Shown piece after piece: positions 405 through 45,756 of a DNA stretch of 64,000 bases. Origin of the DNA: Candidatus Poribacteria bacterium (GTDB lineage: Bacteria > Poribacteria > WGA-4E > WGA-3G). Where the stretch lies: positions 213,015 through 277,014 of the forward strand of contig CBDBFU010000012.1 in NCBI GenBank assembly GCA_965205025.1, written 5' to 3'. Made by a program: the position numbers and the translations under genes. Positions within the stretch are counted from its first letter, which is position 1. Each line of letters starts with the position of its first letter. The notes beneath the pieces are model-generated. The model did not search any database. It saw only the letters and a program-made list of their open reading frames with translations, and had not been told where the DNA came from.

Positions 405-660
405 ATTTCTTATACCATTTCTGGTAATTAAAGTCTCATTAATAGAATCTCTTTAATGTAGCACAAACTTCATGAGGATTAAGTTTTAAATTCGGTAATT
501 CCCATTTTTCCAAACTTGGTAGGTTCGGTTTCCTAACCGAACCGAATTTCTAACACATTACCGAATTATTATTTTAATCTTCATCCAGTTTGTGTAGTAT
601 TTCAAGACATAAATATCACCTAAACATGGGAGAATCATTTATAGAAATGGTATAATTTCC
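405..660. mobile_element. Composite MITE-like element, same families as 42438..42705
   Basis: TIRs 'ttataccatttct' (409-421) and 'agaaatggtataa' (643-655). Inner junction 'gtagcacaaactt'...'cagtttgtgtag'. Inner insert 'aattcggtaatt...ggtaggttcggtttcctaaccgaaccg...attaccgaatt', which contains a perfect hairpin GGTTCGG-TTTCCTAA-CCGAACC. Confidence 0.65.
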
Positions 661-912
661 ACTTGAATACTTTTTGAAATATAAGATTTTCCTTAATCAA
701 ATGCTTAACATTTGATAAAATAAAGGATAATCACATCCTCATCATACTTCCATTTAACATAAGCAGAACTATCACAATCCTATTTTTCTATTGAGATTGG
801 GATACAAAAGGTAAACATCGAAATAACGAATTTACTTCAATAGATACCCAATTTACTCGTTATCTTGTGTAAATACAAATAAAAATAACACCAACGAAAA
901 GGAACACCAGAT

Positions 913-2373
913 ATGGATAAAAGACCCAATATATTGTGGTATTGTACAGACCAACAACGATTCGATACAATTGGTGCGTTAGGAAATAAACATATTCGCA
1001 CCCCCAGACTAAATGAACTTGTCCGTAAATCAGTCACATTTACGCATGCATATTGTCAATCTCCTATCTGTACACCTTCACGCGCAAGTTTCATGACGGG
1101 GATGTATCCTTCAACGCTGAGTGTTACAGGAAATGGTAACCCCGTTTTTCCGCAATACTATGAAGATCGTCTGATTTCTCATGTACTCGCACAAGAGGGA
1201 TACGATTGTGGATTAATAGGAAAACTACATCTCGCAAGTGCTTATGAGGCGCAGGAAAACCGAGTTAACGATGGATACCGGTATTTTCAATATAGCCACG
1301 ACCATGGAAAACCGAAAGCGTTTGGACACGAATATGCTGAGTGGGTACGAGAACAAGGAGAAGACTTGGCAGACATATTATCAAACAGAGTGGTCAACCA
1401 AAATCCTAAGAAGAAGACTGGACAGTTTCCTGAACCTACACCTGATTCTGATAACATACCACCACATCTACATCAGACTTATTGGTGTACAGAAAAAGCA
1501 ATTGAATTCATAAAGAAGAATAGAAGAAAAGATCAACCGTGGATGCTAAATATCAATCCATTTGATCCACATCCAGGATTTGACGCTCCATGGGAATATT
1601 ACCGACGGTATGATCCAGAAACTTTACCCGGTCCATACTTTGAAGACACCGATATACCATTTCAGAATAAATTAACCGAAGCAGGTATTGATTTTCAATC
1701 TAAAGCAACACACCCATCTGAGTTTGATGGGAAACAGGTACAGGCTTCTTATTACGCTATGATTGAACAAGTTGACCATGAGTTTGGACGAATCCTCGAT
1801 TTTCTCGATGCAGAAAACCTTCGTGATAACACTATAATTATATTTACTTCTGATCATGGAGAATCTCTCGGTGACCACGGACTACTCTACAAAGGCTGTC
1901 GTTTTTACGAAGGATTAGTAAGAGTTCCACTTATTATTTCAATGCCAACCCGTTTTCTCGCGGGTATATATAGTCATGACCTTGTTGAACTTATTGACAT
2001 TGTCCCTACCCTGTATGAACTGTTGGAAATTGATATTCCCTATTATGTTCAGGGTAAACCCCTAAATCAGATAATGCGTGGTACTGTTTTTCACAATGAA
2101 CACCGTGAAGCAGTCCGTTCAGAATTCTTCGGTGCATTAGCTACAGCCGATCAAACACATGCCACAATGTATAGAGATCAACGATGGAAGCTCGTTGTAT
2201 ACCATCAGAAAGGAATATGCGAACTCTATGATCTTCGGCACGATCCATGGGAACATCATGATCTCTCGGAAGATAATGATTATCAGGACATCAAGTGGGA
2301 ACTGATGCAGAAAAGTTTCGATGCAACTGTTTATGCACACCCACAAATGATACCACGTGTCGCGTCCCATTAA
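913..2373 (+). CDS. Arylsulfatase (formylglycine-dependent sulfatase family)
   Basis: ATG start. N-terminal sulfatase signature 'CQSPICTPSRASFMTGMYP' (the C-x-P-x-R FGly motif) and a 'TSDHGE' metal-binding motif. Length 486 aa is typical for the family. Confidence 0.85.
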   Translation: MDKRPNILWYCTDQQRFDTIGALGNKHIRTPRLNELVRKSVTFTHAYCQSPICTPSRASFMTGMYPSTLSVTGNGNPVFPQYYEDRLISHVLAQEGYDCGLIGKLHLASAYEAQENRVNDGYRYFQYSHDHGKPKAFGHEYAEWVREQGEDLADILSNRVVNQNPKKKTGQFPEPTPDSDNIPPHLHQTYWCTEKAIEFIKKNRRKDQPWMLNINPFDPHPGFDAPWEYYRRYDPETLPGPYFEDTDIPFQNKLTEAGIDFQSKATHPSEFDGKQVQASYYAMIEQVDHEFGRILDFLDAENLRDNTIIIFTSDHGESLGDHGLLYKGCRFYEGLVRVPLIISMPTRFLAGIYSHDLVELIDIVPTLYELLEIDIPYYVQGKPLNQIMRGTVFHNEHREAVRSEFFGALATADQTHATMYRDQRWKLVVYHQKGICELYDLRHDPWEHHDLSEDNDYQDIKWELMQKSFDATVYAHPQMIPRVASH

Positions 2374-2450
2374 CACACTAATACCAATTTTGTATAACCT
2401 TACCACCCTACAAATTGGTAATTGATACTTCATTCGCAAGGTGTGAATAG

Positions 2451-4364: not shown

Positions 4365-4521
4365 TGCTACCTGGTATTCGACTTCTACCTTGGAATGATG
4401 TCTTTTCACGGTGTTTCTGTAGTGTGACTCAATGAATTGGTATATATGATAGAGATCATGTTATAATTCTCTAAATTACCATTACAGAATTATAATCACA
4501 TATCACAATTTGGATAGAAAA

Positions 4522-5181: not shown

Positions 5182-5398
5182 TATAGAATTTGTCAATTCG
5201 ATGTTTACAGGTGGGTGTGTAAAGTAATTGTCACTTTACTTAACACCAATGATATCTCAATTTCAATTCATCCAGTCTGAATTTCGAGAATTACAGATTA
5301 TTCTTCACTACTATAATTTTCGACAATTCTATTTCAAGGGGTAACTGAGAATCTAATGATAAGTCTATTTTTTGGAGTTTCTATATCAAAAATACCGT

Positions 5399-5468
5399 AC
5401 TCCAGCGGAGTACTATGTCTATAGAAAACAATATCGGAACAGTCTGACACTCCAGCGGAGTGCTATGT
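5399..5468. repeat. Two copies of a about 21-nt motif ACTCCAGCGGAGT(A/G)CTATGT about 50 bp apart
   Basis: 5399-5418 and 5449-5468. The motif contains the small hairpin ACTCC-agc-GGAGT. A third copy is at 45809-45829. Confidence 0.6.
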
Positions 5469-5865
5469 CCCAATACACTTCGTATGAAAAACATATAAGT
5501 ACTTAATTCATACTTAAGTTATAGTGTAATTAACGTATGTGATTCACGGAGAATTGGTCTACTTAAATTATAAACCCTTATAGAATAAGGGCTCGTAAAA
5601 TTGCTCCGTGAAGGTTTCCGTGAAAGTGCTATCATTTCAAAATGATAGATATTAACACTTTTTCCATTCACATTATCCATACATCTAACATAATTAGGTA
5701 TTTATCTCACTTTGAAAGTATAAGTAGCATTTGTGGTATCCAGATACAATAGCAGCGTAATGTTTAATGACAGAAACTTTACACACCCGATTGCCTTTCG
5801 TAGATTGATAAATATATATAGATGTGATATACTTTTTCCATAATTTATACAAGGAATTAATGTAA

Positions 5866-6783: not shown

Positions 6784-6816
6784 TAGAATCTTGTGGAATT
6801 GTAATTGTTTTGATTG

Positions 6817-21167: not shown

Positions 21168-21935
21168 ATGAAAAAGATCACTCTAACATTTACTTTACTA
21201 TTTCTCGTTGGATTCGTAGTACAACCGGCACTATCACAAGTTGTTGATGGTCTTGTTGCATATTGGGATTTCAACGAAGGTTCAGGTAACATAGCAAAAG
21301 ATATGTCTGGTAATGGACATGACGGAGAATTGTTGGGAGATGCTCAGTGGACTAACGATGGGTATTTCGGTGGTGGAATCGTATTTGATGGTGCTGGAGA
21401 TGAGGTAAATATTCCTTATCATGCAGACCTCAATCCAGAAGTTTTCACCATTTGTGCTTGGGCAAACGTGGCAGATGGAGGAACAGGACATCGTGCTGTA
21501 ATCTCCTCTCGTGCGGATTTCCCACAACGCGGGTTTATCTTCTACTGCACCCCAGGAAATGTATGGCAGTTTTGGATTGGTGCGGGACCAGACAGTTGGA
21601 AATCTGCTCAAGGACCAGGTGTGACTGTTGACGACTGGGATCATCTCGCAGGGACTTATGCTAATGGGAATCATAGGTTTTATGTAAATGGTGAATTTGC
21701 TGCTGAACAGAAATTTAATATCGCTGTTAACCCTGAAGAGGAATTACTTATCGGGGCAGGCGCAAATGAAACTGCTAACCATAACTATTTCTTCAATGGT
21801 ACAATTGATGAAGTGCAAATCTATAACCGTGTCCTCTCCGATGACGAAATCGCAACCGTTATGACAAGTCCCGTGACTGCTGTAGAAGCCTTAGATAAGC
21901 TTGCACTTACATGGGGACAACTCAAAGCGAAGTAG
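21168..21935 (+). CDS. Secreted LamG / concanavalin-A-like lectin-fold protein, paralog 1 of 3
   Basis: Signal peptide 'MKKITLTFTLLFLVGFVVQPALSQ'. Conserved blocks 'DxSGNGHDGxLLGD', 'GDEVNIPYHxDLNPEVFTIxAWANVADGG', 'HRFYVNGEFAAEQ' and 'NGxIDEVxxYNRVLSDDEI'. Ends in '...LTWGQLKAK'. Confidence 0.8.
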   Translation: MKKITLTFTLLFLVGFVVQPALSQVVDGLVAYWDFNEGSGNIAKDMSGNGHDGELLGDAQWTNDGYFGGGIVFDGAGDEVNIPYHADLNPEVFTICAWANVADGGTGHRAVISSRADFPQRGFIFYCTPGNVWQFWIGAGPDSWKSAQGPGVTVDDWDHLAGTYANGNHRFYVNGEFAAEQKFNIAVNPEEELLIGAGANETANHNYFFNGTIDEVQIYNRVLSDDEIATVMTSPVTAVEALDKLALTWGQLKAK

Positions 21936-22025
21936 GATTTGCGATATTTGTGATTCACAGGTTTAAAGTGCTGTGTCTAAGTACAAAATAGCAACTCTCA
22001 ACAAAATTGAAACAGAGGAATAAAA

Positions 22026-22796
22026 ATGAAATATGTCACTTTAACCATAGCATTACTATTACTTATAGGACTGGCAGTACAACCAGTGCTTTCTCAAGAT
22101 CTAAAAAAAGGCATCGTAGCATATTGGGACTTCAACAAAGATGAAGGCGAAACTACCACTGATTCATCTGGCAATGGACACGATGGGACATTGTTAGGGG
22201 ATACAAAATGGACAAAAGACGGCTACTTTGGCGGCGGAGTTATGTTTGATGGTGCTGGAGATGAAGTAAATATTCCTTACCATAAGGATCTTAATCCAGA
22301 AGTATTCACTATCACTGCTTGGGCAAACGTCGCAGATGGTGGTGCTGGACATCGCGCTGTCGTATCATCTCGTGCTGACTTTCCACAACGCGGTTTTATC
22401 TTCTATTGTACTCCTCAGAACACATGGCAGTTTTGGATCGGTGCCGGAGCCAATCACTGGAAATCAGCCCAAGGTCCCGCAGTCAATCTTGATAAATGGG
22501 ATCACCTTGCTGGCACCTATGCGGACGGAAATCATAGGTTTTATGTAAATGGTGAATTTGCAGCGGAACAGAATTTTGATATTGATCTTAACCCCGATCA
22601 AGAATTTCTCATCGGTGCTGGAGCAAATGAAACCGCAAACCATAACTACTTTTTCAATGGTATAATTGATGAAGTACGTCTTTATGACCGTGTTCTGGAC
22701 GACGACGAAATCGAAGCAGTTATGAAGAGTGATTCCTTGGATGTTGAACCATCTGGTAAGATCGCTATTACTTGGGGACAACTCAAAACCAAATAG
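22026..22796 (+). CDS. Secreted LamG-fold protein, paralog 2 of 3
   Basis: Same blocks as 21168..21935, with about 70% identity by eye, visible even at DNA level. Signal peptide. Ends '...ITWGQLKTK'. Confidence 0.8.
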   Translation: MKYVTLTIALLLLIGLAVQPVLSQDLKKGIVAYWDFNKDEGETTTDSSGNGHDGTLLGDTKWTKDGYFGGGVMFDGAGDEVNIPYHKDLNPEVFTITAWANVADGGAGHRAVVSSRADFPQRGFIFYCTPQNTWQFWIGAGANHWKSAQGPAVNLDKWDHLAGTYADGNHRFYVNGEFAAEQNFDIDLNPDQEFLIGAGANETANHNYFFNGIIDEVRLYDRVLDDDEIEAVMKSDSLDVEPSGKIAITWGQLKTK

Positions 22797-22824
22797 CATC
22801 AACACTTTATCCATTTGAATTACT

Positions 22825-22871
22825 TAATATAACAAAGGAGTCGGGTTTAACCCACTCCTTTGTTATATTAA
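22825..22871 (+). terminator. Long perfect inverted repeat (17-bp stem) downstream of LamG paralog 2
   Basis: 'ttaatataacaaaggagt cgggtttaaccc actcctttgttatattaa'. Confidence 0.6.
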
Positions 22872-22876
22872 GTATA

Positions 22877-22965
22877 CAGTGTATCTCATAAATACGAATC
22901 CATTCTACCGATATAATTTCTCTTCGTAGTGGGCGGGATCTCCCCACCCGTTGTTTCAAAATTTA
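22877..22965. repeat. about 90-nt dispersed repeat ('cagtgtatctcat...ttcgtagtgggcgggatctccccaccc...ttcaaaat'), copy A
   Basis: Shares the 'cagt.tatctcat' head and the 'TTCGTAGKGG..GG.T..CC....CC' core with 39871-39965, 41961-42055 and 56560-56615. Confidence 0.5.
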
Positions 22966-23087
22966 TTACATTGACTGACTTTATAGAAAATATTGTACAT
23001 AAACCCTGAGTATTTACTTTGAAAATACCACTGTTACTTGGAAACAACTAATAACTATAAACTAATCCTTAGATGAGGGTATATGAG

Positions 23088-23852
23088 ATGAAGTATATAT
23101 GTATTACATTTGCTTTAATATTCTTTGTTGGATTCATAATACAATCGGCACTATCTAAGAATATTGATGAAGGTATCGTTGCCTATTGGGGACTAAACGA
23201 AGATAATGGTGAAACGGCTAAAGATGATTCTGGGAATGGACACGATGGAAAGTTGCTTGGAGACCCACAGTGGACAAAGGAAGGATATTTTGGAGGAGCT
23301 CTTGAATTCGATCAGGTTGGAGATGAAGTTAACGTTCCATTCCATAAAGATCTCAATCAAGAATCCTTTAGTGTGTGTGCTTGGGCAAACGTTGAACCCG
23401 GAAGTGCAAATCATCGCGCAGTTGTTTCTTGTCGTGATGCCCCGCCATTGAGTGGGTATATCTTTTATGCAGAACCAGGGAATACTTGGCAATATTGGAC
23501 TGGTGATGGGTCATGGGTATCTGTTCAGGGACCTAAGGTAAATCTTGGGGATTGGGATCATCTAACAGGGACCTATGCCGATGGTGTACAAAAGTTCTAC
23601 GTTAACGGAGAATTTGTAGGTGAAAGGAACTCTAAGATTATCGTTAATACAAGACAGGAATTTCTCATTGGTGCCGGTGGGAATGAACTCGGGGCACATC
23701 AATACCTCTTTAAGGGTAGGATTGATGAGGTGCGTTTATATGACCGTGCACTGGACGAAGACGAAATCGCAGCAGTAATGGAGAGTGAAGGATTAGCCGT
23801 GGAAGCATTTCGTAAGATTGCTGTTAAATGGGGACAACTTAAAGCAAAGTAA
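23088..23852 (+). CDS. Secreted LamG-fold protein, paralog 3 of 3 (more diverged)
   Basis: The ORF-track start 23073 gives 'MRVYEM'. ATG at 23088 gives 'MKYICITFALIFFVGFIIQSALS' (signal peptide). Same motif blocks. Ends '...VKWGQLKAK'. Confidence 0.75.
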   Translation: MKYICITFALIFFVGFIIQSALSKNIDEGIVAYWGLNEDNGETAKDDSGNGHDGKLLGDPQWTKEGYFGGALEFDQVGDEVNVPFHKDLNQESFSVCAWANVEPGSANHRAVVSCRDAPPLSGYIFYAEPGNTWQYWTGDGSWVSVQGPKVNLGDWDHLTGTYADGVQKFYVNGEFVGERNSKIIVNTRQEFLIGAGGNELGAHQYLFKGRIDEVRLYDRALDEDEIAAVMESEGLAVEAFRKIAVKWGQLKAK

Positions 23853-23914
23853 GACTATTGGACGTTCAACACTTACCATTCTTTCCTCCTGACTGTTATA
23901 GTATCCAATACTAT

Positions 23915-24245
23915 TTTTGATAATTAAAGTCTCTTTAATTGTAGCATAAACTTTCAGTTTGTGCTGTATTTCAAACATGTATAGGTGTCAATTTAGGAGA
24001 AAAAATGTTGTATCTTAGGAGAAAAAATGTTGTATCCCCAGTCCGGGAGGTGCGGTTTCCCAACCGCACCAAATTTGTGCCAAACCTTGTATTGAAAGCC
24101 TTCTCGTATAATCCGCTTCGGTTAGGAAACCGAAGCTACCGTTCTTGGATGTGCACTAAATTGACGCCTATGGTGCTGTATTTCAAAAGATACATAACAA
24201 CTGTCTATAGAATAAACAATTATAAAAATGGTATAACAATAAACC
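23915..24245. mobile_element. MITE-like element copy with two inner cores and a 22-bp tandem duplication
   Basis: 'taattaaagtctctttaattgtagcataaactttcagtttgtgctgtatttcaaa' (outer TIR junction with no insert). 'gggaggtgcggtttcccaacc' and its reverse complement 'cggttaggaaaccg'. Tandem 'ttaggagaaaaaatgttgtatc' x2 at 23993-24036. Right end '...aaaatggtataacaat'. Confidence 0.55.
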
Positions 24246-30629: not shown

Positions 30630-30712
30630 ATTTCAGTTTGTACGGTATTTCAAACCATGCTTATCAACTTTTCATAGGATAAACATCTATAGAAATGGTA
30701 TTACTTGAACAT
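30630..30712. repeat. Half-copy (right arm) of the outer MITE family
   Basis: 'tttcagtttgtacggtatttcaaacc...ctatagaaatggtattac'. Confidence 0.45.
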
Positions 30713-36373: not shown

Positions 36374-36412
36374 GATTAAGAATATCACGAGTCTAATGCT
36401 TAAATTGATGCC

Positions 36413-36439
36413 TATAGGGCGGGGAAACCCCGCCCTACG
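36413..36439. terminator. Bidirectional terminator hairpin between convergent genes
   Basis: 'tagggcggggaaaccccgcccta': 10-bp GC-rich stem with an 'aaa' loop. Confidence 0.6.
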
Positions 36440-36506
36440 ATAATTTATGAACTTGATTACCGAACTATTTAAACTTCATCTGGCTCATCAAATTACCTTC
36501 CAATAT

Positions 36507-37394: not shown

Positions 37395-37437
37395 ATTATA
37401 ACCCCAATGAGAGAAATCAAATCATAGTATAACAGTT

Positions 37438-38112
37438 ATGCAAATTATTTGTGAAGGTAATATAAAGACTCAACTACTTGACCTATATCAACAACTACAA
37501 TCAGAACACGGAAAATTAAGATGGTGGCCAGCAGATACTCCTTTTGAAGTGGCTCTTGGGGCAATTCTTACGCAAGCAACTGCATGGCGAAATGTCGAGA
37601 AGGCACTGGATAATCTAAAAGCTGCCGATAAGTTTACACCCGAAAAAATCAATAAACTCAATCAAGACGAGTTGGAAGAACTTGTACGACCTTCTGGTTA
37701 TTTTCGAGTTAAGGCAAAGAAGGTACGGGCATTTGTTGAACATCTTATTGAACGCCCCATGTCTGCCATGTTCAAGCAGGATGTTCCTGAGTTAAGAGAA
37801 GAATTGCTATCTATCTTCGGTGTAGGTCCGGAAACTGCAGATTCAATTATCTTGTATGCTGCAGAAAAACCAAGTTTTGTTGTTGATACTTACACATACA
37901 GATTGGTGAGTAGATTAGGATGGGTTGAAGGTAATTTTCACTATGAAAGACTAAGAGCTCTATTTATGGATAACCTTCCGCACGATGTTGAACTATTCAA
38001 CGAATACCATGCACTCGTCGTACGGCATGGTGCACGAGTATGTAAAAAAACTCCTGAGTGCATAGCCTGTTGTCTACAAGAAAATTGTGATTACTATTCC
38101 AATTTAGAATAG
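37438..38112 (+). CDS. HhH-GPD-family DNA glycosylase (endonuclease III-like)
   Basis: HhH motif 'LLSIFGVGPETADSIILYA' with a downstream Asp. 224 aa. Confidence 0.7.
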   Translation: MQIICEGNIKTQLLDLYQQLQSEHGKLRWWPADTPFEVALGAILTQATAWRNVEKALDNLKAADKFTPEKINKLNQDELEELVRPSGYFRVKAKKVRAFVEHLIERPMSAMFKQDVPELREELLSIFGVGPETADSIILYAAEKPSFVVDTYTYRLVSRLGWVEGNFHYERLRALFMDNLPHDVELFNEYHALVVRHGARVCKKTPECIACCLQENCDYYSNLE

Positions 38113-38115
38113 AGT

Positions 38116-38230
38116 TATACCATTTCTTATTATTAAAGTCGCTTAAATGTAACATAAACTTCCAGTTTGTGCGGTATTTCAAGACTTCCATGCCATCGTT
38201 CCATAACAACTATTTATGGAAAAGGTATTA
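38116..38230. mobile_element. Short (about 115 bp) outer-family MITE copy without inner insert
   Basis: 'ttataccatttcttattattaaagtcgcttaaatgtaacataaacttccagtttgtgcggtatttcaag...tatggaaaaggtattac'. Abuts the 3' end of the FG-GAP gene. Confidence 0.55.
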
Positions 38231-39883
38231 CTTTTCTTCTGTAATGGTAATAAATTGATTAGATTCAACATCTTTCAATGTCTGAACATGACCACAAATC
38301 CATTCCACTGTCACCAAATCAATCTTCTCAACATTTCCTAAACCAAAATGTAATCTCATATCATTCTGACTGAGATATCCCGAACCACTCTTAACCTCCC
38401 GAATTTGGGTTAAGTTATCTGTCCTAACAGACACACGTGCTCCAATAGCATCTTTTGCACAATGCATCCCCACAAGTCTTACAGATAACCAATTCCGTGA
38501 GTTTCCATTCTCATTACGGATAACAGTCGGGGAATCTTTAAGGTTTGCTACAACAATATCCACATCACCATCATTATCAATATCTCCAAATGCTGTTCCT
38601 CTACTTACTTTGTGTGGTAAAGCCAGATCTACCTCTTCAAATGTAACCCCTTCTTTACTCATAAATAGTTGGTTAGGCTGTGTGTATGTACCCACAGGAT
38701 CATAATCTTCAACATTATCATCCAAATGTCCGTTAGCAACAAAGAGATCCAACCAACCATCGTTGTTAAAATCCATGAAATCCACACCCCAAGCCAAATA
38801 CGGTAGACTCTTTGCTCCTATTCCGATTGGAAAACTCACATCCTTAAAATACTTCTCATGCTCATTATGATAGATGTTATTTACCTGATCCTGAAAATTC
38901 GTAATGACAATATCCAGAAATCCGTCATTGTCATAATCACCAAGATTTGCTCCCATTCCGCTATAAGGACGTCCTTCCTCACTTAACGCAACACCACTAA
39001 ATAAGGCATCTTCAGTAAACGTGCCATCTCCATTGTTATAGTAGAGCATATCAGGTGTTGTGTCATTCGCAATAAAAATATCTATATCACCATCATTATC
39101 CACATCGCCACAAACCACACCCAAACCTTTTCCCGCAGGGGCAGTAATACCTGCTTTTTCGGTTACATCAGTAAACGTTCCGCCACCATTGTTACGGTAG
39201 AGTATATCTGCTTCGGCATTGAGTGCTTCAGGTGTGCAATACACAGGAATATCTTGATGGGTACACTCAGGATTAGATTCTGTATCAAATTGAACATAAT
39301 TGACAACATATAGATCAAGGTATCCATCCGCATCATAATCTATAAAAGCACACCCACTACTGAATTGACTACCACCCACACCTGTCTGATCGGTTACATC
39401 GGTAAATGTACCATCACCATTATTCTTATATAGTATATTCTTACCATAATTTGTTACATACAAATCGACGAATCCATCATTATTGAAATCACCTACGCAA
39501 CATCCATTCCCGTATCCGATATCCCCCACAGAGGCGTCATTTGTCACATCGGTATACTTACCATTATCGTTGCGATATAACACATTCGTCGCACCTTTTT
39601 CAGATGCAACCCATGGTAAATCCGAGCCGTTAACCAAGTACAAATCTAAATCTCCATCATTATCATAATCAAATAAAGCCAAACCTCTACCGAGGGGTTC
39701 GATAAAGTACTTCCTACCACTCTCTCCATTGACATCTTGAAAATCAATTCCAAGTTCATCTGTTATCTCACTAAAAACTGGATTATCAGATAAAAAAGGC
39801 GAGTCCTGAGTCAATGTATTCTTTACTGGAAAAAGTAGAAAAAGAATGGATAGAATCCACATGAAATATACAGTCAGTCTCAT
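38228..39883 (-). CDS. Secreted FG-GAP/VCBS-repeat protein with C-terminal ASPIC/UnbV domain
   Basis: Signal peptide. Repeated 'YxNNGDGTFTDVT' and 'DxDxDGxxDLxV' FG-GAP calcium-binding motifs. C-terminal 'SGSGYLSQNDMRLHFGLG' is the ASPIC/UnbV hallmark. Confidence 0.8.
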   Translation of the reverse strand: MRLTVYFMWILSILFLLFPVKNTLTQDSPFLSDNPVFSEITDELGIDFQDVNGESGRKYFIEPLGRGLALFDYDNDGDLDLYLVNGSDLPWVASEKGATNVLYRNDNGKYTDVTNDASVGDIGYGNGCCVGDFNNDGFVDLYVTNYGKNILYKNNGDGTFTDVTDQTGVGGSQFSSGCAFIDYDADGYLDLYVVNYVQFDTESNPECTHQDIPVYCTPEALNAEADILYRNNGGGTFTDVTEKAGITAPAGKGLGVVCGDVDNDGDIDIFIANDTTPDMLYYNNGDGTFTEDALFSGVALSEEGRPYSGMGANLGDYDNDGFLDIVITNFQDQVNNIYHNEHEKYFKDVSFPIGIGAKSLPYLAWGVDFMDFNNDGWLDLFVANGHLDDNVEDYDPVGTYTQPNQLFMSKEGVTFEEVDLALPHKVSRGTAFGDIDNDGDVDIVVANLKDSPTVIRNENGNSRNWLSVRLVGMHCAKDAIGARVSVRTDNLTQIREVKSGSGYLSQNDMRLHFGLGNVEKIDLVTVEWICGHVQTLKDVESNQFITITEEK

Positions 39884-39965: not shown

Positions 39966-39994
39966 ACGTCAGTTTGACAATAAAAAAATGTCAG

Positions 39995-40050
39995 TTCGAT
40001 AAACAGAATTTTGTCCTGAAGATAGTCTTTGTAGCACAAACTTTCCAGTT
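39995..40050. repeat. Fragment of the outer MITE family (central junction only)
   Basis: 'tttgtagcacaaactttccagtttgtgcactc'. Confidence 0.4.
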
Positions 40051-40362
40051 TGTGCACTCTGGTGTTAACTAAAAGATCGGGTTACAGTGTGCTTATCAAA
40101 CTCACGTTAGCATTAGGATCTTTGTAGGCATGATTCCGATCCCCGATCCTTTCATTATATTGTACCTGATAAGATCTAAGTATTCTCCAAAAATATCATT
40201 TATGAAATATAGTTTTTTATATCGCATAGTAAACGGATTATGATATAATCAGATAAAATAGTCCTTCATAAATACCAGTCTTTTAATCTATAATTCTGGT
40301 GAATATATTATAGATGTTCCACTTGTTATTATCCAATTAAGTTTGAAACCAGGAGAGAAATA

Positions 40363-41328
40363 ATGGCAAATTTACGTTTTGGTGTTGTCGGTTTAGGTAT
40401 GGGAATGAATCGATCAAGTATTATCCACAGCACAGAGGGTGCTGAACTCGTCGCTGTTGCTGATCTTGATGAAAATCGACGGAAGGCAGCAGAGGAAAGG
40501 TTTGGGTGTGAAAGTCATGACGACGCTTTAGAAATGTTTGATCGAGATGATATTGATGTAGGAATGATTATGACACCAAGTGGTCTCCACGGCAAGTTCG
40601 GGGAAGAAGCAGCACGCCGCGGAAAACATGTCATTACCACAAAACCTATGGATGTGAGCGTCGAAAATTGTAATTCGCTCATCAAAACCTGTGAAGAGAA
40701 TAATGTAAAACTGCTTGTTGACTTTGGCGAACGGTACGGAAATCATAATCGAAGAATTAAAACTGCTTTAGATCAAGGGGCACTCGGCAGACCTTTACTG
40801 TGTGAACTCCGGATGAAATGGAAACGACCTGATAGCTACTATGTCGGTTGGCATGGTACATGGGAATTTGATGGTGGTGGTTCAATTATGAACCAAGGGG
40901 TACACTATATTGATCTAATGTTGTGGTTTATGGGACCTGTAAAACGGATCATAGGTGCTCATTTTGATGTTTACGACCACGAAAATTGCGAAACAGAAGA
41001 TATGACCTCTGCCATATTAGAATTTGAAAACGGTGCTCTTGGACACGTTTTGACGACGACAACATTTCCTGGAAGTAGTGTTTCAATGATTCACATTCAT
41101 GGCGAGAAAGGCATTGTCGGTCTTGGACCAGAAATGTGGCAGTTCGCTGACGATGAAGAACCTGAAATTGAACTTCCAGCATATCCTGACAATGTTATTC
41201 AGGATGCACTACAAGTTATTAACGATGGCGCGTCCCCAGCAGTTGATGGTTATGAAGGTAGACGATCCGTTGAACTCAACATGGCTATATATGAATGTGC
41301 CCGAACAGGAAAACCCATTACAATGTAA
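40363..41328 (+). CDS. Gfo/Idh/MocA-family oxidoreductase (second copy)
   Basis: 'LRFGVVGLGMGMNRSS' Rossmann N-terminus and a 'TTKPMD' block. 321 aa. Confidence 0.75.
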   Translation: MANLRFGVVGLGMGMNRSSIIHSTEGAELVAVADLDENRRKAAEERFGCESHDDALEMFDRDDIDVGMIMTPSGLHGKFGEEAARRGKHVITTKPMDVSVENCNSLIKTCEENNVKLLVDFGERYGNHNRRIKTALDQGALGRPLLCELRMKWKRPDSYYVGWHGTWEFDGGGSIMNQGVHYIDLMLWFMGPVKRIIGAHFDVYDHENCETEDMTSAILEFENGALGHVLTTTTFPGSSVSMIHIHGEKGIVGLGPEMWQFADDEEPEIELPAYPDNVIQDALQVINDGASPAVDGYEGRRSVELNMAIYECARTGKPITM

Positions 41329-41526
41329 AATCTCAAATTATCTTTTATATCCGGTGCGGTTCCCATAGAATTCATTCACGAATTCTACTTTAATCCCCGC
41401 ATCGGATATCCATACTCTCAAAATTATTTATACAGAAATAGAAAACAAGCTCAAACAAATACAACACGCACAATAAATTATCCTTTAATATCCCTTTCTG
41501 ATTTTTCCAAACTATATTTATTCAAA

Positions 41527-42283
41527 AAAATAAAATGAAGAAAACAAAAACTTCTAACAACAAATATACATACATCACAACAACCTAAAGTAAATTAAAA
41601 ATATATGTCAAAATAAACTGGAGAATAGGATTATCTATGTTAGAATTACAACTAAAAACATCAGAAATCTTAACAATTGAGAATCATTCACAAATCATAT
41701 ATATTCGTAGCCTAATAAAACAGGTACAGTGGATTATCAAAGTCAGTTTCACCACATATTTTTTTAGTTTTTCAAATTTTAAAATTTTACACCTATTAAT
41801 CAAATCCTTTGTTATCCCAATCCCTAACAGGGTTTACAGCGAATTAAAAAGTCATTTTTTTAAAAGCGACTCAAAAAACTTGAAAAACTTGAAAAACTCA
41901 AAAAACTTGAAAATAGACCTATTTCAAACAATGCACACTATCATATACATCAGTAAACTACAGTGTATCTCATTACTACGAAGCGTCTATACAGATAGAA
42001 TTTTCTTCGTAGTGGCAGGATTTCCCTGTCCATTGGTTCAAAATATTGCAAATGGTAAAACCAATGAATCCTCCAAATCTATGATTTATGAGATATGTTC
42101 TAATGCCTTGTCAAAATCAAAGGATAAGATATTTCACATTCAAACAATTCCAAATCAATGGATCAAAAGAAAAGTAAAAGACACAAAATTCATCCACAAT
42201 TTATATTTGGTGCAAATTCTTGTAACCTTAAAAAAGTGGCTCTAAACCCAGTGTACTACTGACGAGAAAGAGGTTTTACCAAT
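41527..42283 (+). repeat. ~760-bp repeated element, copy 1; contains a 9-bp iteron-like tandem array (aaaaacttg)x4 and a copy of the 'TTCGTAG..' motif; carries a low-complexity ORF (41637..42245)
   Basis: It shares these blocks with 63221..64000: 'aaaataaaatgaagaaaaca..cttctaacaac', 'ttttaaaattttacacc.att.atcaaatcctttgttatcccaatccc.aacagggtttacagc', the (aaaaacttg)n array, and 'caaattcttgtaaccttaaaaaagtg.ctctaaacccagtgta.tactgacg.gaaa.aggttttaccaa'. Confidence 0.8.
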
Positions 42284-42437
42284 GTCACACCATGTGACAA
42301 AAAGTGTAACTTTTATCAACATATTGGTAATATATAATTAACTATTCGTGAACAACTAAAACAGTAAATTACACAAGAATTACCCTTGAATAACTAAAAA
42401 CTAAAAACTATAAACTATAAACTGTTAACTGTTAACT

Positions 42438-42705
42438 AATACCATTTCTAATTGAAAATGTCTCTTTTTTGTACCACAAACTTTATGAAGATAAAGAAAA
42501 TATTTCGGTAATTCTAATTTTCCAAAACCCGGTAGGTGCGGTTTCCTAACCACGGGGAATGCTAAATAGCATTCATACCGTTGATTTGGATCTTTTTCCA
42601 AAATTACCGAATTTAAATATTAATCTTCATTCAGTTTGTGACCTGAAAAATGGCTACCATAATAACCGCCTAATGAGACAATAATTTATAGTAATAGTAT
42701 AATAA
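42438..42705. mobile_element. Composite MITE-like element: outer element with an inner hairpin element inserted
   Basis: Outer TIRs are 'taataccatttct...' and '...tagtaatagtataat'. There is an internal 'gtaccacaaactt'/'cagtttgtgac' junction. The inserted inner element is bounded by 'ttcggtaatt'/'aattaccgaatt' and carries the 'ggtaggtgcggtttcctaacc' core. Confidence 0.6.
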
Positions 42706-42999
42706 CCATAAGTTCTGTCATATTCAGGAAAAAACTTTAAATATCCTTATGTGCTTTTAACCTTGACTTAAACATTCTACATAGGATATAATTGACACAA
42801 CGTATATATTTGTGACTTAGGTATAGAAGGTTTAATCATATTAAGTATTACCACGTAATGTAAAAGGCAACATCGTTAATCTAAGAAGAGAAAGTTCAAC
42901 CGTATAAACAATTTACAAGATTAATCTTATATTATCTGATTATCACTGAATGCTACTTATAATAGCGATATAACAGGTAACCCCACTTAGGAGGACACA

Positions 43000-44313
43000 A
43001 TGCCTAATAGAGACAGTTTAAACACAGACTGTGAAGGATTTTATCGCAGAGATCTAATTAAAGCGGGTGTACTTGGCTTTTTTGGTTTTGGTCTCACCGA
43101 CTTCTTTCGGCTGAAAGCATTCGCAGAACCCACTGCAAAACCCGGCACCGCAAAATCAGTTATTCTGGTATGGTTAGGGGGTGGTCCCAGCCATCTTGAT
43201 ATGTGGGATCTCAAACCCAATGCACCAGAAGAGATTCGTGGACTTTTCAAACCTATCAATACCAATGTCAATGGGATACAGATCAGCGAACATATGCCGA
43301 AACTGGCACAACAAACAGACAAACTATGTATCGTTAGGTCTATGACCTCACCCGAAGCAGCACATGAACGTGGAACGCACTACATGATTACTGGATATCA
43401 ACCTCTACCAGGTTTTGCTGTTCCCGGACACGGAGCTGTTGTTTCCAAACTTAAAGAACAACGTAGTGCTTTACCCCCATATATCGCTATTCCTTCACCT
43501 GTTGCTTATGGTGATGGAGGATTCTTAGGCGCATCACTTGCTCCATTTTCTCCTAACGGCAATCCCGCAAGCAAAAACTTCAAAGTACGGGATTTAGAAC
43601 CACCAAAAGGTGTTTCCTACGAAAGAGTTGAAGGACGGCGTAACCTACGAGATGCAGTTGATACGGCATTCAAGAAATATGAAGCAGGAAACCCACGCGT
43701 TGAAGCAATGGATAATTTCTATACTGCTGCTTACAACCTAATGAGTTCTGAAGATGCACGGGCTGCATTCGACCTTAATAACGAACCTAAGCAGATCCGG
43801 GACGCATATCTACGAAATACTTTTGGACAAAGTTGCCTACTGGCTCGTAGACTTGTTGAAGCTGGCGTAAACTTTGTCACTGTAAGCAATGGTGGTTGGG
43901 ATAACCATAACAATATCTTTTCTTCACTACCCGGCAAACTCAATAACTTTGATACCACAATGGCAACACTCATAAATGATCTCACACAACGTGGACTACT
44001 TGATAGTACACTGGTGATTGCTATGGGTGAGTTCGGTAGAACTCCTGTAATCAACCGTAACGGTGGAAGGGATCATCATTCTCGAGTATTCTCAATAATG
44101 CTTGCTGGTGGTGGTGTAAAAGGTGGACAAGTTGTTGGGGCTTCCGATCCATTTGGAATGGAACCCGCAGAGACACCTGTACGACCCGAAGATCTTTCTG
44201 CTACTATCTATAAGAGTCTCGGTATCGATTACAATCAAAGTATTGAATCCCCTGATGGTGTCCGCATTGTACTTTCTCGCGGTGGACGGCCTATCCGAGG
44301 TGTCTTAGCATAA
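43000..44313 (+). CDS. DUF1501-family protein (sulfatase-like fold) with Tat-type signal
   Basis: 'RRDLIKAGVLGFFGFGLTDF' Tat-like N-terminus. Conserved DUF1501 blocks 'VWLGGGPSHLDMWDLKP' and 'GEFGRTPVINRNGGRDHH'. Confidence 0.8.
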   Translation: MPNRDSLNTDCEGFYRRDLIKAGVLGFFGFGLTDFFRLKAFAEPTAKPGTAKSVILVWLGGGPSHLDMWDLKPNAPEEIRGLFKPINTNVNGIQISEHMPKLAQQTDKLCIVRSMTSPEAAHERGTHYMITGYQPLPGFAVPGHGAVVSKLKEQRSALPPYIAIPSPVAYGDGGFLGASLAPFSPNGNPASKNFKVRDLEPPKGVSYERVEGRRNLRDAVDTAFKKYEAGNPRVEAMDNFYTAAYNLMSSEDARAAFDLNNEPKQIRDAYLRNTFGQSCLLARRLVEAGVNFVTVSNGGWDNHNNIFSSLPGKLNNFDTTMATLINDLTQRGLLDSTLVIAMGEFGRTPVINRNGGRDHHSRVFSIMLAGGGVKGGQVVGASDPFGMEPAETPVRPEDLSATIYKSLGIDYNQSIESPDGVRIVLSRGGRPIRGVLA

Positions 44314-44534
44314 GCAGAATGGGTATCACTATTTTGCATTAATGTAGTGCTGGGGTTTACAATTGTTGACACCAGCACTACACACTGCTAACTGAGGTTG
44401 AGGCTTGATAGTTCTCTGGAATTCTGATGATGGTTAGCCTGAATTAGCAGATCATTATATTCCGGCTGTTATACCTTCCTACATATTAATCTTTTCCTCC
44501 ATATCAAACCTTCCTCATTGCATGGATTTATACC

Positions 44535-45578
44535 ATGAAAAACAACTGCTTTTATTTTATCTCTTTCTTTTCATCAATTTTTCTGTGTGTTCTGTTTGGA
44601 AATATAACCCAAGCAGATGAGCATTTGCAGGAACAGAGAGAAAAATTATCCCCAATCTGGTCAGTACAATTTAGTCCTGATGGACGTACACTGGCTGTTG
44701 GTAAATATCAGTGGGTCGAACTCTGGGATATTGAGACACAGAAAATGATACACGCCTATGAACCTCATGCCGGACGGGTCCGGTGTATTAAGTTTTCTGA
44801 AGATGGAAAAACACTCTTCGCTGGTGGTGGTTCAGCTGCACAGAGTGGAGAAATTAAACTCTGGGATGTTCCAACTGAAGAACTCATTAAGACCATTGAG
44901 ATACATGCAGACACCATTGAATCTATTGCTATCAGTCCAGATAACGCAAAATTGCTGACAGCAAGTATGGATGAGTTTAGCGCAGTAATTGACCTATCGC
45001 TGCATGATGAAAACCTTTCTATTGCTGATCAGGCAAAATGGCTCACTCAGCATGTCGGGAGAGTTTTGAGTACGCTTTACCATCCAAGCGGAAGTTTCTT
45101 CGTCACTGGGAGTGAAGACAAGACTTTAAAAGTATGGGATGCAAAGGATTATTCAGTTCTGGTCAGTTTTGATGGAAACGATGATTCTGTTTATTCACTC
45201 GCCTATGCTGATCGAGAAAACCTGATTGTTTCAGGTTCAGCTGATACCACTGTCAGATCTTGGAGAATCACACAAACAAACAACGGTGAGACCCGGGGAG
45301 ACCCAGTTCGACAATTCAACCAACATGAAGGTCCAGTCTATAGTGTTGATTGTGGTATTTCGAATGGAATAGAGATAATCGCATCAGGAAGTGCTGATAC
45401 ATCTGTCATTATTTGGAACATTCGCAACGGGAACAGACGCCGTACCTTTAACGATGCAACAGATGAAGTCTATACTGTACATATCAGTCCAGATGGTAAT
45501 CATGTTGCTTCCGGAAGTCGGGACGGGAAGGTTCGGATTTGGAATATCAGTAATAATTCTTTATCACATGAATTCTAA
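44535..45578 (+). CDS. Secreted WD40 repeat protein
   Basis: Signal peptide 'FYFISFFSSIFLCVLFG'. WD repeats 'GSxDxTVRxWxI' and 'SGSRDGKVRIWNI'. Confidence 0.8.
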   Translation: MKNNCFYFISFFSSIFLCVLFGNITQADEHLQEQREKLSPIWSVQFSPDGRTLAVGKYQWVELWDIETQKMIHAYEPHAGRVRCIKFSEDGKTLFAGGGSAAQSGEIKLWDVPTEELIKTIEIHADTIESIAISPDNAKLLTASMDEFSAVIDLSLHDENLSIADQAKWLTQHVGRVLSTLYHPSGSFFVTGSEDKTLKVWDAKDYSVLVSFDGNDDSVYSLAYADRENLIVSGSADTTVRSWRITQTNNGETRGDPVRQFNQHEGPVYSVDCGISNGIEIIASGSADTSVIIWNIRNGNRRRTFNDATDEVYTVHISPDGNHVASGSRDGKVRIWNISNNSLSHEF

Positions 45579-45671
45579 CATAACCCAAGTTGCTACAAAT
45601 GCATTTTGATCGTTTCAACACAGTTTTCAGCACACTTTACTTACCCCAGATGAAGTTAAAAAAATAAAATA

Positions 45672-45756
45672 GGTAATTTGGACCCAGAGCTGGTAGGTGC
45701 GGTTTCCTAACCGTACCGGATTCTACAAGAAACTGAAAATTACCCGAATAAATTCT
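45672..45756. repeat. Solo copy of the inner hairpin element
   Basis: 'ggtaatttgg...ctggtaggtgcggtttcctaaccgtaccgg...aaaattacccgaat'. Confidence 0.5.

What the first reader, a model, noticed from the sequence alone, without database searches (positions are those of the whole stretch)
405..45756. Nested MITE-like repeat families colonising intergenic DNA
There are two families.

An 'outer' element of about 115 bp without insert has the terminal inverted repeats 'ttataccatttct' and 'agaaatggtataa'. It also has an internal palindromic junction 'gtagcacaaactt' | 'cagtttgtgc'. Copies lie at 405-660, 23915-24245, 38116-38230 and 42438-42705, with partial copies at 30630-30712 and 39995-40050.

An 'inner' element of about 85-130 bp is bounded by 'aattcggtaatt' and 'aattaccgaatt'. 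It is built around the hairpin-forming core GGTAGGTGCGGTTTCCTAACC. The copy at 510-535 forms a perfect GGTTCGG-TTTCCTAA-CCGAACC stem-loop.

In three of the outer copies the inner element is inserted precisely at the outer element's central junction, while 38116-38230 shows the empty site. The inner element also occurs solo (45672-45756) and as two opposed cores in the 24-kb copy. That is an element-within-element insertion history and a preferred target site.
Basis: seen in the sequence. Interest (0 to 1): 0.5.

Follow-up and report, generated by a model that had tools for sequence, protein, structure and literature searches.

The report
Nested REP-type hairpin repeats in Poribacteria
The repeats are real: they are the version, in a sponge-symbiont (Poribacteria) genome, of bacterial REP elements (short GTAG-tagged DNA hairpins served by a tyrosine transposase), and they sit inside one another because new copies land in the loops of older hairpins.

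Summary
The repeats exist almost as described and are far above chance. "Two MITE families" is too coarse. The window is Candidatus Poribacteria DNA.

The inner core is a GTAG-tagged hairpin, REP-A: CGGTAG-GTGCGGTT-TCCT-AACCGCAC-CG. Its stem covaries. It forms oriented inverted doublets. In eight other Poribacteria contigs it directly flanks a REP-associated tyrosine transposase (RAYT) gene. The outer element's "junction" is a second GTAG hairpin, REP-B.

Across 27 complete C elements:
- 21 lie exactly 2 nt from each arm of a pre-existing short hairpin, and these hairpins belong to many unrelated families;
- 25 are flanked by the same single nucleotide on both sides.

This fits integration at the middle nucleotide of a hairpin triloop with a 1-nt duplication.

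One of the three claimed junction insertions is wrong. In the 24-kb copy the hairpin is intact. A different REP-A doublet element sits just downstream, flanked by 15-nt direct repeats.

Verdict: a REP–RAYT system new to Poribacteria, with an unusually clear hairpin-loop integration signature. The enzyme that moves the carriers is inferred, not shown.

The parts
410..655 (+). Outer carrier copy 1 (filled). Termini are TTATACCATTTCT at 410-422 and AGAAATGGTATAA at 643-655.
458..594 (+). REP-B hairpin split by the C element: GTAG-CACAAACT-TC (458-471) | C | CC-AGTTTGTG (585-594).
472..584 (+). It is flanked by C on both sides.
518..544 (+). REP-A: GGTAG + GGTTCGGTT-TCCT-AACCGAACC (hairpin at 522-543).
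23907..24236 (+). Outer carrier copy 2. The left terminus is degenerate; the right terminus is AAAAATGGTATAA at 24224-24236.
23941..23964 (+). Intact REP-B hairpin GTAG-CATAAACT-TTC-AGTTTGTG. It is not interrupted.
23961..23975 (+). Left copy of the 15-nt direct repeat GTGCTGTATTTCAAA that flanks the E element.
23981..24171 (+). E element: ATAGGTGTCAATTTAG … CTAAATTGACGCCTAT. It holds two inverted REP-A cores (REPIN-like doublet) and a 22-nt internal tandem duplication.
24045..24071 (+). REP-A core with tag variant GGAG and loop TCCC.
24114..24140 (-). REP-A core, opposite orientation: GGTAG-CTTCGGTT-TCCT-AACCGAAG. The stem carries a compensatory change.
24173..24187 (+). Right copy of the 15-nt direct repeat.
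30631..30703 (+). Right half of an outer carrier: the REP-B 3' arm through terminus AGAAATGGTATTA.
36395..36480 (-).
38115..38230 (+). Empty outer carrier (116 bp) that fills the gap between convergent genes. REP-B is at 38149-38172 with loop TCC.
40031..40056 (+). Solitary REP-B: GTAG-CACAAACT-TTCC-AGTTTGTG.
42437..42702 (+). Outer carrier copy 4 (filled). REP-B is split as GTAC-CACAAACT-TT (42471-42484) | C | TC-AGTTTGTG (42631-42640).
42485..42630 (+). C element, 146 bp, flanked by T on both sides. Its REP-A (42531-42551) has lost the 3' arm to a further hairpin module, GGGGAATGCTAAATAGCATTCATACCGTTGATTTGG (42552-42589).
45641..45775 (+). C element 45650-45766 (117 bp, flanked by G on both sides) inside the small hairpin ACCCC-AG|GA-GGGGT. 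REP-A is at 45692-45718 with a G·T pair.

Best explanation
The window carries a mosaic of Poribacteria REP-type elements.

Shown:
- Two GTAG-tagged DNA hairpins are the conserved cores. REP-A is GGTAG-GTGCGGTT-TCCT-AACCGCAC. REP-B is GTAG-CACAAACT-NNN-AGTTTGTG.
- REP-A is the hairpin that flanks RAYT (REP-associated tyrosine transposase, HUH/Y1) genes in related Poribacteria.
- Each REP sits at the apex of a palindromic, non-coding carrier of about 115 bp. The C element (ATGAAG…CTTCAT) carries REP-A. The TTATACCATTTCT…AGAAATGGTATAA carrier holds REP-B in every window copy, but REP-A or other GTAG hairpins in other genomes.
- Complete C elements are found at stem-XY[C]YZ-stem'. That is, they lie in the middle of the loop of an existing hairpin of any family, with the middle loop nucleotide present on both sides.

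Inferred:
- The hairpins act as single-stranded DNA. The RAYT, supplied in trans from a REP-flanked gene elsewhere in the genome, recognises the GTAG + stem + loop on one strand and copies the carrier.
- Integration uses the unpaired apex of an extruded or replication-fork hairpin. Each new palindrome then offers a new loop, and elements pile up inside one another: outer carrier > REP-B > C > REP-A > further modules.
- The elements are genomic parasites or commensals, not gene-specific regulators.
For: 1. Identity of the core.
- 194 cores in about 1 Mb of Poribacteria DNA share a block of about 30 nt with GTAG more than 90% conserved, and unrelated flanks.
- The stem covaries: 95.9% of cells are paired against 87.6% in shuffles (0 of 500 reach it). 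There are 68 double-change cells against 15.7, and 4 of 9 pairs show compensatory types.
- The loop TCCT is invariant or nearly so.

2. REPIN-like doublets.
- Close inverted pairs are almost all tag-outside: 10 at 39-42 bp and 4 at 65-69 bp. No tag-inside pair lies closer than 91 bp.

3. REP-flanked RAYT genes ('REPtrons').
- The L038 ORF scores 128 bits on NCBIfam REP_Tyr_transpos (cutoff 80). It matches Pfam Y1_Tnp at 1.7e-16 and has the HUH and Y motifs.
- It lies among arrays of REP-A.
- All seven homologues of 63-84% identity that were examined (L118, L119, L120, L121, L125, L126) are flanked by REP-A-type hairpins.
- More distant RAYT clades (L107, L122/L123, L124) are each flanked by their own hairpin.

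4. Strand asymmetry.
- G·T mismatches on the GTAG strand number 33, against 13 A·C. This fits a strand-specific single-stranded substrate, as published for TnpAREP (PMC8266576).

5. Integration signature.
- 25 of 27 C elements have the same nucleotide on both sides (p = 2e-13).
- 21 of 27 have a perfect stem of at least 5 bp starting exactly 2 nt out. Random controls reach 2.6%.
- The host hairpins belong to about 10 families that also exist uninterrupted.
- Uninterrupted REP-B loops are TCC, TTC, TTT or GTT. Occupied ones read TC|CC, TT|TC, TT|TT or GT|TT.
- The same C subfamily occurs in different host hairpins.

6. Not conserved with genes.
- 198 of 219 REP-A copies are extragenic, with no sense bias (67 against 51).
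- The elements are absent from syntenic intergenic regions in L128 and L129.
- There is no Rfam match.
Against: - No RAYT gene lies in this 64-kb window, so the link rests on other Poribacteria genomes.
- No RAYT flanked by REP-B was found.
- Y1 transposons of the IS200/IS605 type have no terminal inverted repeats and make no target duplication. The C element has both inverted termini and a 1-nt duplication, which looks more like a cut-and-paste enzyme.
- Window copies are only 65-85% alike, so recent movement is not shown.
- Filled and empty sites were compared between paralogous or merely nearby copies, not strict orthologues.
- The loci used were fetched by a REP-A pattern, so copy densities are biased.
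- The E element's 15-22 nt direct repeats are not explained by this model.
Confidence: 0.7

Rival explanations
1. The C element and the outer carrier are classical MITEs. They would be deletion derivatives of an insertion sequence, moved by a DDE-type transposase that recognises the terminal inverted repeats. That enzyme would happen to target hairpin loops, as IS1397 does with REP/BIME. REP-A and REP-B would be passengers captured once and then propagated.
For: - The ends are real inverted termini.
- The size is 105-146 bp in most copies.
- There is a 1-nt flanking duplication in 25 of 27 copies.
- A few C elements have a different centre without REP-A: 4 of 27.
- IS elements that insert specifically into REPs are documented (cited in PMC3116915 and PMC3733652).
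Against: - No longer element with these termini and a transposase ORF was seen in about 1 Mb. That is weak negative evidence.
- A 1-bp duplication is not typical of known DDE families (own knowledge).
- The most conserved part of the element is the GTAG hairpin at the apex, not the termini.
- The same GTAG hairpin flanks RAYT genes in eight contigs.
Confidence: 0.2
2. The repeats are functional RNA or regulatory modules kept by selection at each locus. They could be transcript-stabilising or terminating hairpins, small RNAs, or promoter cassettes (the right terminus reads TGGTATAAT in copy 1). On this view they are not mobile DNA.
For: - The stem covaries and the loop is conserved.
- G·T is tolerated on the GTAG strand.
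- REPs in other bacteria are known to affect mRNA stability and termination (PMC3733652, abstract).
- All REP-B copies in the window are co-oriented with the neighbouring genes.
Against: - There is no T-run after the hairpins, and no excess of terminator-like or promoter-like sites.
- The -10-like box loses its T6 in most copies.
- Across loci there is no orientation bias relative to genes.
- The elements are absent from orthologous intergenic regions.
- Arrays flank transposase genes.
- No Rfam family matches.
- Elements interrupt one another.
Confidence: 0.06
3. The nesting has no dedicated enzyme. Palindromes would grow by replication template-switching or hairpin-primed repair and spread by recombination between copies.
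For: - Long direct repeats flank the E element, often a whole duplicated hairpin.
- There is a tandem 22-nt duplication inside it.
- REP arrays have fixed periods.
Against: - Template switching does not explain a 115-bp unit of constant length at about 27 unrelated sites in many genomes.
- It does not explain the fixed 2+2 register and 1-nt duplication.
- It does not explain the association with RAYT genes.
Confidence: 0.04

Closest known systems
REP / REPIN-RAYT systems ('REPtrons'), especially group-3 REPs of Stenotrophomonas maltophilia and Marinomonas (PMC8266576; PMC3116915; PMC2817692)
   Same: - The core is a GTAG tetranucleotide followed by a perfect 8-9 bp palindrome with a 3-4 nt loop whose sequence matters.
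- Copies are extragenic.
- Inverted doublets occur at fixed spacing.
- The RAYT gene is flanked by the REP.
- Different RAYT clades have different REPs.
   Different: - The host is Poribacteria, and no description was found in the searchable literature.
- Most copies here are single REPs at the apex of AT-rich palindromic carriers of about 115 bp, not plain REP doublets.
- There is a defined integration signature: hairpin-loop centre with a 1-nt duplication.
- Some RAYT-flanking copies are tagged GCTG instead of GTAG.
REPs embedded in other palindromes: Anabaena variabilis GTAG-15 dimers inside TATAGGA…TCCTATA palindromes, and Thermomicrobium roseum GTAG-23 inside CCGSSCC(n3-4)GGSSCGG (Di Nocera et al. 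[quoted passage not shown]
   Same: - GTAG REPs sit regularly inside longer or shorter palindromes.
- The carrier termini begin TATA-.
- Free copies of the small target palindrome exist in the genome.
   Different: - Here the inserted unit is a whole 115-bp carrier.
- The host hairpins are of many unrelated sequences, so the target is a structure, not a sequence.
- The register (2 nt + 2 nt) and the 1-nt duplication are quantified.
- Nesting reaches 4-5 levels.
E. coli BIMEs and IS elements that target REPs (IS1397, ISPpu9/ISPpu10, IS621; cited in PMC3116915, PMC12288879, PMC11208160)
   Same: - These are mosaic intergenic clusters built from REPs.
- REP hairpins are used as insertion targets by other mobile DNA.
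   Different: - Those insertions are by autonomous ISs recognising a particular REP sequence.
- Here the inserting element is non-coding and itself carries a REP.
- It enters hairpins of about ten different families.
Bacterial MITEs (Correia/NEMIS, ERIC, RUP and others) and IS200/IS605-derived palindrome-associated elements
   Same: They are non-coding, 100-300 bp, intergenic, with inverted ends, and able to fold into long hairpins.
   Different: - No parent IS with the same ends was found.
- The conserved part is the apical GTAG hairpin.
- IS200/IS605 derivatives lack inverted termini and make no duplication, whereas these elements have both.
Small dispersed repeats (SDR) of Nostoc/Anabaena (Elhai et al. 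2008, Genome Res 18:1484; recalled from memory, paper not held in the library)
   Same: They are very small hairpin-forming repeats found nested within other repeats in a genome crowded with repeat families.
   Different: - No RAYT link was described for the SDRs.
- I could not check whether a loop-centre rule was reported.

Membership tests
REP / REPIN-RAYT system | Short (20-40 nt) palindromic unit able to form a stem-loop | tested here: met
   REP-A has a 9-bp stem and 4-nt loop. 95.9% of cells are paired, with compensatory changes at 4 pairs. REP-B has an 8-bp stem and a 3-4 nt loop.
REP / REPIN-RAYT system | Conserved unpaired GTAG tetranucleotide at the 5' foot of the hairpin | tested here: met
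   G7, T8, A9 and G10 are at least 90% conserved in 100 REP-A cores. The fetching pattern required GTAG for one copy per locus, but additional copies in the loci also carry it. REP-B reads GTAG in 3 window copies, GTAA in 1 and GTAC in 1. 179 of 395 perfect hairpins in the loci are GTAG-tagged, the top tetranucleotide.
REP / REPIN-RAYT system | High copy number, predominantly extragenic | tested here: inconclusive
   There are 5 REP-A and 6 REP-B in 64 kb. More than 117 genomic stretches were found, all Poribacteria, with the scan truncated. 198 of 219 copies lie outside ORF proxies. A whole-genome count for the window's own genome could not be made.
REP / REPIN-RAYT system | Inverted doublets (REPINs / dimers) at characteristic spacing | tested here: met
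   There are 14 tag-outside pairs at 39-42 or 65-69 bp and no close tag-inside pairs. The window pair is 24054/24120.
REP / REPIN-RAYT system | Cognate RAYT gene (Y1/HUH) flanked by the same REP | tested here: met
   The test is met in related genomes only. L038 scores 128 bits on NF047646 (cutoff 80). L118-L121, L125 and L126 are flanked by REP-A-type hairpins. The feature is not present in the 64-kb window. No REP-B-flanked RAYT was found.
REP / REPIN-RAYT system | RAYT binds and cleaves its REP as single-stranded DNA; mobility depends on it | not testable with these tools
   There is only indirect support: strand asymmetry of G·T against A·C mismatches, 33 against 13.
MITE (IS-derived miniature inverted-repeat element) | Terminal inverted repeats and small size without coding capacity | tested here: met
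   The C element has ATGAAGWTTAA… / …TTAAWCTTCAT ends and is 105-146 bp. The outer carrier has TTATACCATTTCT / AGAAATGGTATAA ends and is 114-116 bp when empty.
MITE (IS-derived miniature inverted-repeat element) | Target-site duplication of fixed length | tested here: inconclusive
   The C element has a 1-nt duplication in 25 of 27 copies. The outer carrier shows no consistent duplication.
MITE (IS-derived miniature inverted-repeat element) | A full-length IS with the same termini encoding the transposase | tested here: not met
   No pair of matching termini encloses a transposase-sized segment in about 1 Mb of Poribacteria DNA. The sampling is limited.
IS200/IS605-derived non-autonomous element | Different subterminal hairpins at the two ends, no inverted termini, no duplication, insertion 3' of a fixed tetra- or pentanucleotide | tested here: not met
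   The C element has inverted termini, one apical hairpin and a 1-nt duplication of variable identity (T 14, C 5, G 4, A 2).
Rfam structured RNA families | Match to a curated covariance model | tested here: not met
   There were no hits at gathering threshold over the window and no hits at E<=1 on 380-700.

The most novel reading that the evidence does not exclude
The 115-bp REP-A-carrying C element integrates by recognising DNA structure, not sequence. It enters the apex of any short hairpin, at the middle nucleotide of a triloop, and duplicates that single nucleotide. If a RAYT does this, it would be the first clear genomic footprint of how REP/REPIN-type elements integrate. It would also explain how REP mosaics (BIME-like clusters) build up. 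The companion E element, flanked by direct duplications of a whole 15-22 nt hairpin, could mark a second, undescribed integration mode.
Probability: 0.35. Interest if true: 0.7.

Novelty: new variant of a known kind. Interest (0 to 1): 0.5.

Why it matters
REPs are among the most abundant non-coding repeats in bacteria, yet how they spread is still described as poorly understood (PMC8266576). This matters on three counts:
- The Poribacteria elements extend the REP–RAYT partnership to an uncultured sponge-symbiont phylum.
- They show carriers with one REP at the tip.
- They leave an unusually legible insertion footprint: hairpin-loop centre, a fixed 2+2 register and a 1-nt duplication, across about ten unrelated host hairpins.

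That footprint gives a concrete, testable target for biochemical work with a RAYT and hairpin oligonucleotides. It also explains why intergenic DNA in these genomes becomes a stack of palindromes. In practice, these repeats will break short-read assemblies and can mislead searches for small RNAs, terminators or CRISPR-like arrays in Poribacteria MAGs.

Tried and rejected
- **Rfam.** There was nothing at gathering threshold over the whole window, and nothing at E<=1 on copy 1.
- **Promoter or terminator reading of the termini and hairpins.** Counts were no higher than in shuffles. The TGGTATAAT box of copy 1 is not kept in other copies.
- **RAYT in the window.** tblastn with the L038 RAYT found none.
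- **Autonomous partner IS.** No long pair of C or outer termini enclosing an ORF was found.
- **RAYT flanked by REP-B.** Nine RAYT contexts were examined and none has REP-B.
- **Target duplications for the outer carrier.** No consistent pattern was seen.
- **Strict orthologous filled and empty pairs.**
  - L103 has the closest empty relative of the 42437 copy, with arms 87-92% identical and loop TTC against TT|TC. It lies in a rearranged context and in the opposite orientation.
  - L128 and L129 are syntenic but lack the whole elements, not just the insert.
- **Literature on Poribacteria REP/RAYT.** Only false hits turned up, on the author name Raytselis.
- **Elhai 2008.** The paper could not be opened.
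- **Orientation relative to genes.** There was no useful bias.

Full report
**1. The observation**

I read all stated copies and ran repeat detection and pattern counts with shuffled controls. The outer termini, the junction motif and the inner core are all present at or near the stated coordinates, far above chance. For example, the core GGTTTCCTAACC occurs 5 times against 0.28 expected.

As single-stranded DNA the composites fold into nested hairpins. Energies are well below those of shuffles: z = -7.5 for 405-660, -5.2 for 42433-42706 and -5.4 for 23904-24240. The empty copy at 38111-38232 folds only at its central hairpin (z = -1.3).

All copies lie between ORFs whose products are ordinary enzymes and surface proteins: sulfatase, LamG, GFO/IDH/MocA, FG-GAP and DUF1501.

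**2.

- The perfect stem-loop is at 522-543.
- The inner element extends outward to ATGAAG…CTTCAT: 472-584, 42485-42630 and 45650-45766.
- In the 24-kb copy the junction hairpin is intact (23941-23964). The insert is another element, 23981-24171, bounded by ATAGGTGTCAATTTAG / CTAAATTGACGCCTAT. It is flanked by the 15-nt direct repeat GTGCTGTATTTCAAA.
- The 'solo' inner copy lies between ACCCC and GGGGT.
- A further partial composite sits at 36395-36480.

**3. Where the window comes from and how widespread the core is**

A scan of one genome per species for GGTAGNNNCGGTTTCCTAACCG returned more than 117 stretches. The window itself is not among them. Its genes are 70-86% identical to several of them at the DNA level.

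**4. What the inner core is**

- Across 194 cores in about 1 Mb, only a block of about 30 nt is conserved: CGGTAG-GTGCGGTT-TCCT-AACCGCAC-CG. The flanks are unrelated family-wide.
- The stem covaries: GTGCGG/CCGCAC, GTTCGG/CCGAAC, ATGCGG/CCGCAT, GCGAGG/CCTCGC and GCACGG/CCGTGC.
- On 100 cores, 95.9% of cells pair against 87.6% in shuffles (0 of 500). There are 68 double-change cells against 15.7.
- Close inverted pairs are nearly all in one relative orientation, at 39-42 or 65-69 bp. The window's 24054/24120 pair belongs to the second class.

A GTAG tag, a perfect short palindrome, a conserved loop and oriented doublets together define REPs and REPINs (PMC3733652, PMC3116915, PMC8266576).

**5. 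The transposase**

- In L038 an ORF of 157 aa lies among arrays of this hairpin.
- It passes the NCBIfam equivalog model for REP-associated tyrosine transposase (128 bits, cutoff 80). It matches Pfam Y1_Tnp and has the HUH and Y motifs. It weakly matches the E. coli TnpAREP structure 4er8.
- A protein search gave 91 relatives of at least 53% identity. Those that carry names are from Poribacteria.
- I fetched nine genomic contexts.
  - L118, L119, L120, L121, L125 and L126 (63-84% identity) are flanked by REP-A-type hairpins. Some have single inverted pairs at the gene ends and others have arrays.
  - The more distant L122/L123 and L107 are flanked by CTGTGGGAG-hairpin-CGAT repeats, and L124 by GTAG-GGCGGGGCA….
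- Each RAYT clade therefore has its own hairpin, as in other bacteria.
- The window contains no RAYT.

**6. The 'junction' of the outer element is a second REP**

GTAG-CACAAACT-(3-4 nt)-AGTTTGTG occurs in many Poribacteria loci. It is often found as GTAG…CTAC inverted doublets. Other GTAG-tagged hairpin families are present too. I found no RAYT flanked by REP-B.

**7. Carriers**

- Its arms are 29 nt (ATGAAGWTTAA…CGGTAATT). One REP-A sits asymmetrically at the centre.
- Longer copies have extra modules inserted into the REP-A, as at 42552-42589.
  - In the window, L065 and L103 it holds REP-B.
  - In L046, L105 and others it holds REP-A or another GTAG hairpin.
- Di Nocera et al. described Anabaena REP dimers inside TATAGGA… palindromes and T. 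roseum REPs inside small palindromes. REP carriers and palindromic targets therefore have precedent.

**8. The insertion rule**

I took the 27 complete C elements and looked immediately outside ATGAAG/CTTCAT.

- In 21, a perfect stem of at least 5 bp begins exactly 2 nt away on both sides. Random control positions reach 2.6% for at least 5 bp in any register.
- In 25, the nucleotide touching the element is the same on both sides. The binomial p is 2e-13 and the identity varies (T 14, C 5, G 4, A 2).
- The host stems are REP-B, REP-A, GTAGGCGCGCTT, GTAGGCATAC, GCACTCC, AGTCCC, TCCCCCT, CATATCT, GGTTTTTT and ACCCC. Most of these also occur uninterrupted.
- One C subfamily is found in several host types, so the stems are targets and not part of the element.
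- Uninterrupted REP-B loops are mostly 3 nt (TCC, TTC, TTT, GTT). Occupied ones read TC|CC, TT|TC, TT|TT and GT|TT.
- The simplest reading is integration at the middle nucleotide of a triloop with a 1-nt duplication. This is inferred from comparison of non-orthologous copies.
- The nearest thing to an orthologous pair is L103 (empty, loop TTC) against the window's 42437 copy (TT[C]TC). The arms are 87-92% identical, but the contexts are rearranged.

**9. Mobility against conservation**

- In L128 and L129 the DUF1501 gene, its WD40-like neighbour and the following large gene are syntenic with the window. The intergenic regions there are short and lack both the C element of 45650-45766 and the outer composite of 42437-42702.
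- Across loci REP-A is about 90% extragenic and shows no orientation preference relative to neighbouring genes.
- Hairpins lack T-runs, and promoter-like and terminator-like counts equal shuffles.
- G·T mismatches are commoner than A·C on the GTAG strand, 33 against 13. This is what a strand-specific single-stranded substrate would tolerate.

**10. Mechanism, with its weak points**

- Shown: REP identity, the RAYT association in relatives, the carrier structure and the insertion footprint.
- Inferred: the RAYT moves the carriers, and the target is an extruded or replication-fork hairpin.
- Against the RAYT step: IS200/IS605-type Y1 elements lack inverted termini and make no duplication.
- A cut-and-paste enzyme that targets hairpin loops therefore remains a serious rival, although no parent IS was seen.
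- The E element is a separate puzzle. In the window and in at least eight other loci it is flanked by direct repeats of 15-22 nt. Often the repeat is a whole REP-A hairpin that lacks its tag on one side.

**11. Novelty**

I found no paper linking Poribacteria with REPs or RAYTs. The base layer is a new member of the REP–RAYT kind. Three features together amount to a variant of that kind:

- single-REP carriers;
- multi-level nesting;
- the quantified loop-centre, 1-nt footprint across unrelated hairpins.

They also give a handle on the unsolved question of how REPs integrate. The literature search was limited to open-access text, so prior description elsewhere cannot be excluded.

Noticed in passing
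window 5399-5418, 5449-5468, 45810-45829: A third hairpin repeat, ACTCCAGCGGAGTRCTATGT, has 3 exact copies against 0 expected. The same motif and its relative GCCCCGTAGGGGC flank a different 158-aa Y1_Tnp-like gene family in L007 (5634-6113), L078 (463-939) and L062. This may be a second transposase-hairpin partnership.
   Followed up: partly
window 23961-24187; L111 2104-2303, L044 1325-1608, L045 2000-2201 and 6940-7234, L072 4690-4964, L042 1564-1892, L074 2869-3009, L099 5350-5595: The E element (ATAGGYGTCAATTTAG…CTAAATTGACRCCTAT) is flanked by long direct repeats of 15-22 nt. Often the repeat is an entire REP-A hairpin without its GTAG on one side. No known transposition mode I can name gives this.
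   Followed up: partly
It holds half a C arm, a GTAG-GGCGGGG-TTT-CCCCGCCC hairpin on the minus strand and an ATAGGCATCAATTTAA module.
   Followed up: partly
window 42552-42589; L038 1560-1690; L098 ~1830: A further small module, GGGGAATGC-loop-GCATTCATACCGTTGATTTGG, replaces or splits REP-A arms in several genomes. In L038 a 31-nt module, TGCGGCGTACTCGACCAAATGCGACCTGCAT, splits REP-A in its loop.
   Followed up: no
L121 1211-2965: A TnpB-like gene (OrfB_IS605 / Cas12f1-like_TNB) lies directly upstream of a RAYT homologue. REP arrays lie downstream.
   Followed up: no
L119 2361-2991, L120 2457-2990: RAYT genes are bracketed by a single inverted pair of REP-A-type hairpins whose 5' tag is GCTG instead of GTAG.
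   Followed up: no
window 42763-42792: A sigma-70-like promoter, TTGACT-18-TATAAT (11 of 12 matches), lies upstream of the DUF1501 gene. It is conserved in sequence and position in L127, L128 and L129. The outer composite sits about 60 bp upstream of it.
   Followed up: partly
window 21168-23852: Three tandem paralogous ORFs of 255-259 aa are 66-76% identical at the DNA level. The one scanned (23073-23852) is a Laminin_G_3 (concanavalin-like) protein.
   Followed up: no
window 52464-56501: A large ORF contains 12-14 tandem repeats of 123-126 nt (41-42 aa). Local GC is 46-47% against about 40% elsewhere.
   Followed up: no
window 22821-22874: A near-perfect hairpin with 24-nt arms (96% complementary, 6-nt gap) lies just after the second of the tandem paralogous ORFs at 21168-23852.
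   Followed up: no
window 41618-41917 and 63423-63722: A 300-nt direct repeat, 78% identical, lies within ORFs 41637-42245 and 63307-63966, so these are paralogous genes. The first has no Pfam family.
   Followed up: no
L103 5645-6922 vs window 40369-45766: In L103 the empty outer carrier and a C-type element lie 35 nt apart, right after the GFO/IDH/MocA gene. In the window their closest relatives are inverted and separated by about 3 kb that holds the DUF1501 and WD40-like genes. This suggests rearrangement at the repeats.
   Followed up: no
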